From the human T2T-CHM13v2.0 reference genome, Homo sapiens, in NCBI RefSeq assembly GCF_009914755.1, contig NC_060933.1: 64,000 bases of DNA, one strand, 5' to 3'. Both the position numbers and the translations under genes were made by a program. Shown here in pieces: positions 45,686-48,688 of this stretch; position 1 is the first letter of the stretch, and each line of letters opens with the position of its first letter. Under the pieces are notes generated by a model. It was not told where the DNA came from, did not search any database, and worked only from the letters and a program-made list of their open reading frames with translations.

Positions 45686-46876
45686 TGGCTCTTTTCTCAC
45701 TACTTGTGTGTGGTGTGGCCTCAAGCCAGTTGCCAAGCCTTAGTTTTCTCCTCTGTAAAATGAGGATAATGAATTGGATCACTTGAGATTGTATGAGGAC
45801 CAAATGAAATTAGAACAATAGTATACACGTTCATTTTTATTGGGACCCTACTGTGGACCAAGCATTGTCTTAAATGTTTTACAAGTATTTAAATCGTCAT
45901 AACAACCCTGTAAGGTAGATGTTTTATTATCATCCCAGTAGCATAGGAGAGGAGACTGAGGCCCAGAAAAATAAATCAGCTTGCCCACGGATACGATGCT
46001 AGTGACAGGTGGAGCTCAGGTAGTCTGCTATAATGCCCTGACTCCTAACCAATGGTTCTTATTGTCTCAGACACCTGTGTGTAGTATTTATAAAAGTGCC
46101 TGGCACATAATAGCAGTAAATAAACAAATGAATTGGTTTTGTTCATTGCCACCTTGATGGACTGGCTTTAGCCACTTCTACTTTCTTTTCTACCTGACAG
46201 CACTCAGCAGATAATCTGCCTCCTGTAATACCCCAGGTTCCCTAGAAAATAGAGCCTACATCAAAGGTCAGATGCCTAAGTTAGGGGGAAAAAAGGAAGT
46301 AAGCAAAAAAAGAGAAACAGCAAATTCAAGATGTTGTATGGTTGGTGACAACTTCTCAAGAAAACGTAGGCAAATGCTCAGTCATGTTGTGACAGCTCCC
46401 ATCAGAGTGCACACTATGGAGGCCATGTCAGGGTAGATGAAGGAGAGGGTGTCAGCAGGTGAGGAGACAGAGGTGACAGAAAGGGCTCACCACTGAGCAA
46501 GCAGATACAGGTAGACCAAGCTCATCTGGAGCAACATTGAAATTGAGTCTAATGCCCCGCCCTACGGATCCTGTACCTAAGAGTTCATACAACGTAACAC
46601 TGTGTTTTACCTCCAGTGTGGAGCCAATTACTCTTTCCATGTTCAGTTTTTTCACTAGTAGCATGGAGTAAGAGAGCTTATCTTACTCCATGATAACATT
46701 GAGTATTTGCTGTTGACACATGGCCTGCAATTGCTAGAAGTTCCTTCCTTTGTCCACACAAGACCCGCACGTGGACTCAGATACACGGACCTTAGCTGAC
46801 TGAGTCAACAACTGAAGAACTCTTCCTTGGAAACAGCACAACCCAACAACATTGGCCTGGAGACTGAATCTTTTTT

Positions 46877-47491
46877 TTTTTTTTTTTCATTAAAATCCAT
46901 TTTTATTTATGTGAGATGACAGATGTGCACAATTCTTTTATTTTATTGTCATAGAAATTAAGGAGATATATTTGATCATGATATTCTTGTTTGTTTACAT
47001 GAAATTGCAGAGCTGACTTTTTTTTTATTATACTTTAAGTTTTAGGGTACATGTGCACATTGTGCAGGTTAGTTACATATATCTACAACTATCTGATCTT
47101 TGACAAACCTGAGAAAAACAAGCAATGGGGAAAGGATTCCCTATTTAATAAATGGTGCTGGGAAAACTGGCTAGCCATACGTAGAAAGCTGAAACTGGAT
47201 CCCTTCCTTACACCTTATACAAAAATCAATTCAAGATGGATTAAAGACTTAAACATTAGACCTAAAACCATAAAAACCCTAGAAGAAAACCTAGGCATTA
47301 CCATTCAGGACATAGGCATGGGCAAGGACTTCATGTCCAAAACACCAAAAGCAATGGCAACAAAAGACAAAATTGACAAATGGGATATAATTAAACTAAA
47401 GAGCTTCTGCACAGCAAAAGAAACTACCATCAGAGTGAACAGGCAACCTACACAATGGGAGAAAACTTTCGCAACCTACTCATCTGACAAA
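46877..47491 (-). mobile_element. Young L1 (L1PA2-like) with 5' inversion and 3' transduction
   Basis: 17-bp TSD GAGACTGAATCTTTTTT (46860-46876 / 47492-47508); poly-T; unique 46888-47017; L1 3' end 47018-47080 (-); near-consensus ORF2 fragment 47081-47491 (+). Confidence 0.93.
47081..47491 (+). pseudogene. L1 ORF2p C-terminal-region fragment (inverted segment; not a host gene)
   Basis: [33 protein letters not shown]...ATYSSDK is near-identical to human L1 ORF2p. Confidence 0.95.
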
Positions 47492-48688
47492 GAGACTGAA
47501 TCTTTTTTATCTTTTTGTGCGTGTGTGCATGTGTCTGTAGAAAGATTGAGAGAGATAATCTTGTATCTAGACCTCCAATTACAAAAATGATTATCATTTT
47601 GAATGACATGGGCTAAGAACCCTGCTAAGGATGTTTTAAAGCCATTATCCTATTTTATTATGATGATGACCCTGCAAAGGAAGCATTATTCTCCCCATTC
47701 TATAAACGAGAAAAACTGAGGCTTAGAGAGGTGAAGGAACTCCCTGCAGTTCAAGGAGATAATCAGTGAGTCCCAGGGAGAGTCTGTTCTTTCATTCTTC
47801 TCCCCTGGCTCAAAGGCAGCTCTATTTAATAATTCAGCTTAGGATACCACCATTGTAACCCTTCTTTAACCCAAGTGTGTTCTTGCCCTTATTTCAGTCC
47901 AGCAACTTGGGATTCAGAGAGGTTAACTGAGTCGCAGAAGATCATGCAGCAAACCCGTGCCAGTTTAACCACCACCCGGCCACCTAACATCCATGATACT
48001 ATTTTGATTTTCTGGAACTAAAGAGAAAGTAGAAAGAGATTGAAATCAAGCCTTGGTCATTTTTAATTTATCATCTTTGTCTGAGAATTTTTACTTAATA
48101 TTGAAATAGCATTTTCCCTCTTCCCTTCACCTAGAACTGCAAAGCAAGAGCAAGGGAATGGGAGAAAATCTATAAAAACAAGATCCTTGCTAGTTTATGG
48201 TAATTAAAAGCAATAAATATTCTTGCCCACAATGCTAAAAATCTCAAATAGCCAGTGGGTCAATACTGTTTCCCTGGTTAGGGTGGTAATAAATCTCTAT
48301 TCTTTTCGAGTCAAAATAAGGACGGGGTTTTATTCATGAATTCTGTGACCTGGTACTGCGACATTTTCAAAACAAACACGCCTGGAATGAAGAGTTTCTC
48401 CACAAGTGTGTGTATGTGCCCTCTTCCAACCTGTTTCCTCCACCCACAAAGTGTCTGTGCTGGTGTGGTCTTCTTATTGATGCAACAGCAGTATTTTTCT
48501 CCTGAACCATAATGGCAAAATGACACGAGGCCTCCACTCTTCCTTCTCACCATCACTGTAGCCCAGCACATTTTCTATTCTGGTGGAAAACAGAACGATT
48601 TAACAGTGTACTTCTCAAGCTCATCATCTTTCTCAAAGGCTGTTGCTTGACACAAAAGACATTGTTATTACTCATTAAGTCAGTTTTT

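What the first reader, a model, noticed from the sequence alone, without database searches (positions are those of the whole stretch)
46860..47508. Young L1 insertion carrying a ~130-bp 3' transduction with its own poly(A) signal
Seen: one 17-bp TSD (GAGACTGAATCTTTTTT, 46860-46876 and 47492-47508) encloses more than the L1. On the minus strand, the L1 3' end and a short A9 tail (47018-47026) are followed by ~130 bp of non-L1 sequence (46888-47017). That segment has an AATAAA (TTTATT at 46902-46907) 14 nt before a second A-tail (46871-46887). Established: read-through of the weak L1 poly(A) signal copies 3' flanking DNA (3' transduction). Inference: the 130 bp is a tag from the source L1 locus. 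A repeat masker would leave it as apparently unique local DNA.
Basis: partly seen in the sequence, partly recalled or inferred. Interest (0 to 1): 0.8.

Follow-up and report, generated by a model that had tools for sequence, protein, structure and literature searches.

The report
Inverted L1 insertion carrying chr20 tag
This is an ordinary, several-million-year-old L1 retrotransposon insertion that dragged along 130 bases copied from chromosome 20, where the parent L1 that should sit beside that sequence is no longer present in this genome.

Summary
An exact 17-nt target-site duplication (46860-46876, 47492-47508) encloses, on the minus strand: L1 sequence, an A9 tract, 130 nt of non-L1 DNA with AATAAA 14 nt before an A tail.

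Two corrections. The L1 is 5'-inverted (twin priming). Only its last 54 nt (47027-47080) face the tail. A 414-nt ORF2 piece (47079-47492) is flipped, and about 837 nt between them are missing. It is also not L1HS-young: its nearest relatives look L1PA2-like, and divergence suggests roughly 5-10 million years.

The 130 nt has exactly one other copy in the assembly, on chr20 at 19,651,921-19,652,050, with 2 mismatches. Homology starts at an A6 run and stops where the chr9 copy's poly(A) begins. So the segment came from a polyadenylated chr20 transcript.

No L1 adjoins the chr20 donor, and no young L1 lies within 10 kb either side. The donor lies inside a Na/Ca-exchanger gene, in sense orientation.

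Best reading (0.8): a 3' transduction from a progenitor L1 that never fixed or is absent from this haplotype. Rival (about 0.1): reverse transcriptase switched from a chr20 transcript to L1 RNA. This is a textbook phenomenon of low interest.

The parts
46860..46876 (.). Target-site duplication, left copy (GAGACTGAATCTTTTTT)
   Evidence: Exact 17/17 direct repeat, with only these two matches in the window and 0 of 100 shuffles reaching 2.
46877..46887 (-). Terminal poly(A) tail. It is T11 on the + strand, and up to 17 if the T6 of the TSD is counted.
   Evidence: Read. The chr20 donor continues with non-A sequence at this point.
46888..47017 (-). 130-nt segment copied from chr20 (G000:C20:19651921-19652050, + strand there). 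This is the transduced tag.
   Evidence: It is the only other match in the whole assembly, 128/130 identical, with mismatches at 46993 and 46954. No Rfam family matches.
46902..46907 (-). AATAAA poly(A) signal that was used, 14 nt before the tail. Two overlapping AATAAA at 46937-46947 were bypassed.
   Evidence: Hexamer scan of the minus strand. The same hexamers are present in the chr20 donor.
47018..47026 (-). Internal A9 tract between the L1 3' end and the chr20 segment. Six of these A could come from the A6 run at the chr20 donor.
   Evidence: chr20 reads ...CATC-AAAAAA-GTCAGC at this point.
47027..47080 (-). Last 54 nt of L1 (end of the 3' UTR, including the L1's own AATAAA at 47029-47024), in the same orientation as the tail.
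   Evidence: 54/54 identical to 10 of 26 genomic L1 copies that have a same-strand 3' end. It maps to nt 0-53 from the 3' end of a 6.0-kb copy.
47079..47492 (+). Inverted 414-nt L1 ORF2 piece. It is sense on the + strand and opposite to the tail.
   Evidence: 98.1-98.8% identical to 29 genomic L1 copies. The reading frame is open throughout. [quoted passage not shown] RVT_1 lies just upstream in that family. It overlaps the 3' piece by 2 nt (AT, 47079-47080).
47492..47508 (.). Target-site duplication, right copy. The + strand then continues with A, giving a TTTTTT/AT nick site.

Best explanation
One L1 target-primed reverse transcription event inserted a read-through L1 transcript, i.e. a 3' transduction. 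The insertion was resolved by twin priming.

Inferred chain of events:
- A progenitor L1 sat in sense orientation in an intron of a Na/Ca-exchanger gene on chr20. It lay immediately upstream of ...AAAAAAGTCAGC (CHM13 chr20:19.652 Mb).
- Its transcript ran past the L1's own AATAAA and two more AATAAA, and was polyadenylated 16 nt after a fourth.
- On chr9, L1 endonuclease nicked the + strand at TTTTTT/AT.
- The T run primed cDNA synthesis on the poly(A). That cDNA copied the 130-nt tag, the A tract and only 54 nt of L1.
- The second nick, 17 nt away, primed internally on the same RNA, 884 nt from the L1 end. That cDNA copied 414 nt of ORF2.
- The two cDNAs were joined at an AT microhomology. 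The result is an inversion with about 837 nt missing.
- The progenitor L1 is absent from CHM13. It either never reached fixation and was lost, or it is missing from this single haplotype.

Shown: the anatomy, the chr20 origin, the RNA-type boundaries, and the absence of an L1 at the donor. Inferred: that a progenitor L1 once existed there.
For: - An exact 17-nt TSD encloses the whole composite.
- On the minus strand, the L1 3' terminus, an A9 tract, 130 non-L1 nt and an A tail follow one another.
- The 130 nt has exactly one other copy in the 3.1-Gb assembly, on chr20: 2 candidates found, 2 scored, one of them the query itself.
- chr9 and chr20 align over A6 plus 130 nt with 2 mismatches. Homology stops abruptly at both ends, and the 3' end coincides with the start of poly(A), 16 nt after AATAAA.
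- The chr20 boundary lies at CATC/AAAAAA, which is an A-run site of the kind L1 endonuclease uses (motif recalled).
- The 600 nt upstream on chr20 are single copy, so there are no longer retrocopies of a chr20 transcript.
- The L1 part has no TSD of its own (read).
- In passages seen, PMC13009371 reports that 349 of 1531 somatic L1 insertions carried traceable 3' transductions, all from full-length L1s. In passages seen and its supplement seen, it describes reference 'proxy elements': truncated L1s with a transduction whose source is absent from the reference.
Against: - The defining neighbour is missing. On chr20 the sequence upstream of the tag is unique non-L1 DNA.
- Within 10 kb upstream, only two old antisense L1-like fragments occur (69% over 275 nt and 84% over 56 nt). 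There are none within 10 kb downstream.
- No sibling insertion carries the same tag.
- The internal A tract is only 9 nt, and 6 of those are already in the chr20 empty site. That leaves almost no progenitor tail. The 26 comparison copies appear, by my eye on the sequences printed, to keep A-rich tails of about 10 nt or more. No call measured tail lengths.
- Only one human haplotype and no other primate could be examined.
Confidence: 0.8

Rival explanations
1. Template-switch chimera. L1 reverse transcriptase started on the poly(A) tail of an L1-free chr20 transcript, for example an intronically polyadenylated RNA of the host Na/Ca-exchanger gene. It copied 130 nt up to the A6 run. The T6 end of the cDNA then re-annealed to the poly(A) tail of an L1 RNA, and synthesis continued into the L1 3' end. 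No progenitor L1 ever sat on chr20.
For: - No L1 is present at or near the donor site in this assembly.
- The donor segment is in sense orientation within a gene. Na_Ca_ex exon matches on the + strand lie on both sides, at C20:19636520-19637096 and C20:19748874-19750733. A host transcript could therefore supply the RNA.
- The junction lies exactly at an A6 run, which could give microhomology to a poly(A) tail, and the A tract is short at 9 nt.
- Chimeric retrogenes made by template switching are documented. I saw the search listing and the abstract of PMC13174262.
Against: - Known chimeras place L1 as the 3' partner and a small RNA or mRNA as the 5' partner (recalled). The one catalogue paper examined describes 5'-side partners and has 0 occurrences of the five 3'-transduction or read-through phrases I searched.
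- The model requires initiation in trans on a non-L1 RNA, which is rare (recalled).
- Landing within a few nt of the start of a long L1 poly(A) tail is itself improbable, so the short A tract does not favour this model.
- An A-run boundary is equally demanded by an L1 endonuclease insertion site.
- Absence of the source is expected for many old transductions.
Confidence: 0.1
2. Two separate insertions. A short retrocopy of the chr20 transcript inserted first, and an L1 landed next to it later, or the reverse order.
For: None beyond the fact that two unrelated sequences adjoin.
Against: - A single exact 17-nt TSD flanks the composite.
- The L1 part has no flanking repeat of its own. The sequence after the A9 tract does not repeat the sequence before the inverted piece.
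- The L1 end, the A9 tract and the tag abut with no extra bases.
Confidence: 0.03
3. The 130 nt is native chr9 DNA and the chr20 copy is a duplication of it.
For: None found.
Against: - On chr20 the segment is embedded in continuous single-copy sequence on both sides.
- On chr9 it is bounded by an A tract on one side and a poly(A) tail on the other, and it lies inside the TSD.
- The direction is therefore chr20 to chr9, through RNA.
Confidence: 0.02

Closest known systems
L1 3' transduction (read-through of the weak L1 poly(A) signal; Moran 1999, Goodier 2000 and Pickeral 2000 are recalled; frequency passage seen in PMC13009371)
   Same: The composite has an L1 3' end with its own AATAAA, an A tract, unique flanking DNA from another chromosome, a downstream AATAAA with a second poly(A), and one TSD around everything.
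   Different: The donor locus in this assembly carries no L1. No sibling carries the same tag.
'Proxy elements' of Commun Biol 2026;9:418 (PMC13009371; passages, supplement table)
   Same: It is a truncated L1 in the assembly that carries a transduced tag whose source L1 is absent from that assembly.
   Different: Their two proxies (Yp11.2 and 19q13.31) stand for L1HS sources that are still active in living people. This copy looks L1PA2-like and about 5-10 million years old, so its source is more probably extinct. It is not one of their two loci.
Twin-priming 5' inversion of L1 (Ostertag & Kazazian 2001; recalled, the paper is not held; mentioned in PMC13009371)
   Same: The 5' part is inverted and comes from further upstream in the L1. 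It lies within the same TSD. There is a 2-nt perfect overlap (7 of 9 imperfect) at the junction, and a 1-nt overlap at the TSD junction.
   Different: The first cDNA stopped after only 54 nt of L1, so about 837 nt are missing between the two pieces.
Template-switch chimeric retrogenes such as U6/L1 (listing; abstract of PMC13174262)
   Same: Two RNA-derived parts are fused in one orientation inside one TSD with one terminal poly(A).
   Different: Here L1 would be the 5' partner and a cellular RNA fragment the 3' partner, which is the reverse of the usual arrangement. No structured small RNA is involved (Rfam gave 0 matches).

Membership tests
L1 3' transduction | An L1 3' terminus with its own poly(A) signal is followed, on the same strand, by an A tract and then non-L1 sequence. 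| tested here: met
   On the minus strand, 47080-47027 is the L1 end, 47026-47018 is A9, and 47017-46888 is non-L1.
L1 3' transduction | A second poly(A) signal lies shortly upstream of a terminal poly(A) tail. | tested here: met
   AATAAA at 46907-46902 lies 14 nt before the tail at 46887-46877.
L1 3' transduction | One target-site duplication at an endonuclease-type T-rich nick site encloses the L1 plus the extra sequence. | tested here: met
   There is a 17-nt exact repeat, with 0 of 100 shuffles reaching 2 matches. The nick site TTTTTT/AT is read. The consensus motif is recalled.
L1 3' transduction | The extra sequence is a colinear copy of a unique locus elsewhere, ending where poly(A) was added. 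| tested here: met
   There is one other copy in the assembly, on chr20, 128/130 identical. Homology ends 16 nt after AATAAA.
L1 3' transduction | At the donor locus the sequence lies directly 3' of a same-strand L1, usually full-length. | tested here: not met
   Unique non-L1 DNA lies upstream, and there is no young L1 within 10 kb on either side in CHM13. Only one haplotype was examined.
L1 3' transduction | The composite is absent from the orthologous pre-insertion site in an outgroup, which shows a single TSD copy. | not testable with these tools
   No primate genomes are held. The genome search holds prokaryotes and the window's own assembly only.
Twin-priming 5' inversion | The 5' part of the insert is L1 in the opposite orientation to the 3' part, inside the same TSD. 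| tested here: met
   The same reference copies match the two pieces on opposite strands. The ORF2 frame is open on the + strand.
Twin-priming 5' inversion | The inverted part derives from further 5' in the L1 RNA than the uninverted part. | tested here: met
   The inverted piece maps to nt 884-1297 from the 3' end, and the uninverted piece to nt 0-53.
Twin-priming 5' inversion | There is short microhomology at the inversion junction. | tested here: met
   There is a 2-nt perfect overlap at 47079-47080, or 7 of 9 if imperfect matches are allowed.
Template-switch chimeric retrogene | Two RNA-derived parts from non-adjacent loci are fused inside one TSD with one terminal poly(A). | tested here: met
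   A lost source L1 predicts the same thing.
Template-switch chimeric retrogene | The 5' partner is a cellular, usually small structured, RNA, and the L1, Alu or mRNA is the 3' partner. | tested here: not met
   Here the L1 is the 5' partner. No Rfam family matches in 46800-47100. The definition itself is recalled.
L1HS (human-specific 'young' L1) | L1HS has a diagnostic 3' UTR trinucleotide, ACA or ACG (recalled). | tested here: inconclusive
   The diagnostic site lies in the ~837 nt that this copy lacks. Of the 29 nearest copies, 21 had a readable site: 19 GAG, 1 GAA, 1 AAG, and none ACA or ACG. In 5 the motif was not found, and 3 had no same-strand 3' end. This leans against L1HS.

The most novel reading that the evidence does not exclude
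The composite is not a read-through transduction. It is a '3'-side' L1 chimera: reverse transcription began on an L1-free, intronically polyadenylated transcript of the chr20 Na/Ca-exchanger gene and then jumped at an A6 run onto the poly(A) tail of an L1 RNA. That would be a partner order not covered by the one chimera catalogue I examined (PMC13174262). It would also mean that some 'source-less transductions' in genomes are misfiled chimeras.
Probability: 0.1. Interest if true: 0.4.

Novelty: already known. Interest (0 to 1): 0.15.

Why it matters
In itself it matters little. It is a neutral insertion in a gene desert, and both 3' transduction and twin priming are textbook L1 behaviour.

It has two minor uses. 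First, the 121 unmasked bases (46888-47008) are not native chr9 DNA but a chr20 paralogue, which affects read mapping and alignment-based conservation calls. Second, the chr9 copy is probably the only surviving trace of a once-active L1 that sat in sense orientation in an intron of a chr20 Na/Ca-exchanger gene and was never fixed. That makes it a small data point on how many active progenitors leave offspring but vanish themselves.

Tried and rejected
- Pfam on the inverted ORF2 piece gave 0 families. L1 identity was instead established by DNA matches to thousands of genomic copies (3428 candidates, 40 scored) and by RVT_1 in the adjoining ORF of one such copy.
- Rfam on 46800-47100 gave 0 matches at E up to 1, so the tag is not a known small RNA.
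- The search for longer retrocopies of the chr20 region found only chr20 itself: the 600 nt upstream are single copy.
- The search for a source L1 near the donor found only two old antisense fragments within 10 kb on either side.
- Literature:
  - SLC24A3 + transduction + LINE-1 returned 2 irrelevant papers.
  - The two 'proxy elements' of PMC13009371 are other loci, and its only 20p11 source is at chr20:23.4 Mb, not 19.65 Mb.
  - Szak 2003, Pickeral 2000 and Ostertag & Kazazian 2001 are not held.
  - The supplement of PMC9311842 could not be read, so a non-reference progenitor listed there cannot be excluded.
- I tried using the short A9 tract to separate transduction from template switching and rejected it, because both models predict a longer tract unless it contracted.
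- Two separate insertions and a native-chr9 origin were rejected; see the rival explanations.

Full report
**Observation.**
- GAGACTGAATCTTTTTT lies at 46860-46876 and again at 47492-47508. These are the only two matches in the 64-kb window even with 2 mismatches allowed. Shuffles expect 0.05 matches, and 0 of 100 gave two.
- Between the two copies, reading the minus strand from 47491 downwards, come L1 sequence, an A9 tract (47026-47018), 130 nt of non-L1 sequence (47017-46888) and an A tail.
- The tail is 11 nt beyond the repeat (46887-46877).
- AATAAA sits at 46907-46902, 14 nt before the tail. Two further overlapping AATAAA lie at 46947-46937. The L1's own AATAAA is at 47029-47024.

**Anatomy of the L1 part.** I searched the assembly with 47027-47491, which gave 3428 candidates, of which 40 were scored at 98-100% identity. 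I then aligned 29 of those copies locally.
- 47027-47080 is the last 54 nt of L1, antisense on the + strand. It is 54/54 identical to 10 of the 26 copies that have a same-strand 3' end.
- 47079-47492 is a 414-nt stretch of ORF2 in sense on the + strand, so it is inverted. It is 98.1-98.8% identical to all 29 copies. Its reading frame is open throughout.
- On a full-length 6.0-kb copy (L035), the inverted piece maps 884-1297 nt from the 3' end and the other piece 0-53 nt.
- In intact copies the two pieces are separated by 809-851 nt. The value is 837 in 12 of 26 copies. That stretch is missing here.
- The pieces overlap by AT (47079-47080), or by 7 of 9 positions if imperfect matches are allowed.
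- G at 47492 is shared between the L1 and the repeat.
- The family encodes a reverse transcriptase: RVT_1 scores E = 1.5e-44 in the adjoining ORF of copy L005. Pfam has no model for the inverted piece itself.

This is the pattern expected from twin priming with a deletion (mechanism recalled; it is mentioned in PMC13009371).

**Origin of the 130 nt.** A search of the whole 3.1-Gb assembly with 46888-47017 found two places only: the query itself and G000:C20:19651921-19652050 on the opposite strand.
- Laid side by side, chr9 (minus strand) and chr20 (plus strand) agree over an A6 run plus 130 nt, with two mismatches at window 46993 and 46954. They share nothing beyond either end.
- Upstream, chr20 reads ...CATC before the A run, where chr9 has the L1 end.
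- Downstream, chr20 continues with non-A sequence exactly where chr9 starts its poly(A), 16 nt after the AATAAA.
- On chr20 the segment is embedded in single-copy DNA.

The segment therefore moved from chr20 to chr9 through a transcript polyadenylated at that site. It is not native chr9 DNA. It is also not a known structured RNA (Rfam gave 0 matches).

**The donor locus.**
- No L1 adjoins the segment on chr20.
- Against a full-length L1, the 10 kb upstream contain only two old antisense fragments: 69% identity over 275 nt and 84% over 56 nt. The 10 kb downstream contain none.
- Exon-sized matches to the Na_Ca_ex domain on the + strand lie at C20:19636520-19637096 and at C20:19748874-19750733. 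The donor therefore lies inside a Na/Ca-exchanger gene, in sense orientation, between the exons for its two exchanger domains. From memory this gene is SLC24A3; no tool named it.

**Age.**
- Against the 29 nearest copies, the ORF2 piece differs from the majority at 5 of 414 columns. Three differences are private (47387, 47453, 47466). Two are shared, with 2 copies (47180) and 5 copies (47338).
- The 54-nt piece has no private change.
- Adding the 2 differences over 130 nt on two lineages gives 5-7 changes over 728 site-lineages. That is 0.7-1.0%, with Poisson limits of 0.2-2.0%.
- At a recalled rate of about 1e-9 per site per year, this is roughly 7-10 million years, with a wide margin.
- The diagnostic 3' UTR site is deleted in this copy. 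Among the 29 neighbours it is GAG in 19, GAA in 1 and AAG in 1, and never ACA or ACG. It was not found in 5, and 3 lacked a same-strand 3' end (the diagnostic itself is recalled).

The element is thus L1PA2-like or somewhat older, not L1HS.

**Mechanism.** The simplest account is a single target-primed reverse transcription of a read-through L1 transcript.
- The + strand was nicked at TTTTTT/AT, after 47508 in the empty-site sequence.
- The T run primed on the poly(A). That cDNA copied the chr20 tag, the A tract and 54 nt of L1.
- The second nick, 17 nt away, primed internally on the same RNA and copied 414 nt of ORF2.
- The two cDNAs were joined at a short homology.

This requires a progenitor L1 on chr20 just upstream of the A6 run, a site of the A-rich kind that L1 endonuclease uses. 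That progenitor is absent from CHM13. CHM13 is a single haplotype (recalled), and most active L1 alleles never reach fixation (recalled). An event this old with a lost source is therefore expected rather than odd.

The literature seen here supports that expectation. In PMC13009371, 349 of 1531 somatic L1 insertions carried traceable transductions, all from full-length L1s. The same paper describes reference 'proxy elements' whose source is missing from the reference. Their two proxies are other loci.

**Rivals.**
- **Template switch.** Reverse transcriptase could have switched from an L1-free chr20 transcript onto the poly(A) of an L1 RNA at the A6 run. This explains the missing source and is helped by the donor being sense-oriented within a gene. 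However, it needs rare initiation in trans. It has the reverse partner order of known chimeras (recalled). The catalogue paper I examined deals with 5'-side partners and has 0 occurrences of the five 3'-transduction or read-through phrases I searched. The model also does not explain the short A tract any better. I give it about 0.1.
- **Two separate insertions.** These are excluded by the single repeat around the composite and the lack of a repeat around either part.
- **Native-chr9 origin.** This is excluded by the boundaries.

**What remains open.** The A tract between the L1 and the tag is only 9 nt, and 6 of those are present in the chr20 empty site. By my eye on the sequences printed, the comparison copies keep A-rich tails of about 10 nt or more; no call measured tail lengths. 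Contraction of the homopolymer or slippage must be assumed under either model. No primate genome or human pangenome could be consulted. Three classic papers and one supplement could not be read.

**Verdict.** Both the phenomenon and this source-less variant of it are already known, so interest is low.

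Noticed in passing
L007 (G000:C10:112686884-112690296): In this L1 copy the 3'-end piece matches on the opposite strand to the ORF2 piece (92.6% over 54 nt). It looks like another 5'-inverted L1, or two adjoining L1 fragments.
   Followed up: no
L002 about 430-650 (G000:C20:19650850-19651070): A GC-rich tandem repeat of roughly 40-nt units (ggtccctcccgcgcacctgg...) lies about 0.9 kb upstream of the chr20 donor site. 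I saw it by eye and did not analyse it.
   Followed up: no
L002 about 1810-2095: An Alu-like element lies about 180 nt downstream of the chr20 poly(A) site. I saw it by eye.
   Followed up: no
window 47515-47541: A TG-rich low-complexity stretch directly follows the right TSD copy. It explains why NCBI's masked interval (47009-47541) runs past the insertion.
   Followed up: no
L035 (G000:C3:178576500-178583000, minus strand): This is a full-length 6.0-kb L1 flanked by a 14-nt direct repeat (AAAAGCGTTATGTT). Its 3' UTR carries GAG at the diagnostic site, and its ORF2 region is split over several frames. I used it only as a ruler.
   Followed up: partly
window 46724-46747 and 47733-47756: A 24-nt inverted repeat, 75% complementary, has arms 985 nt apart and straddles the insertion. 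It is probably chance.
   Followed up: no
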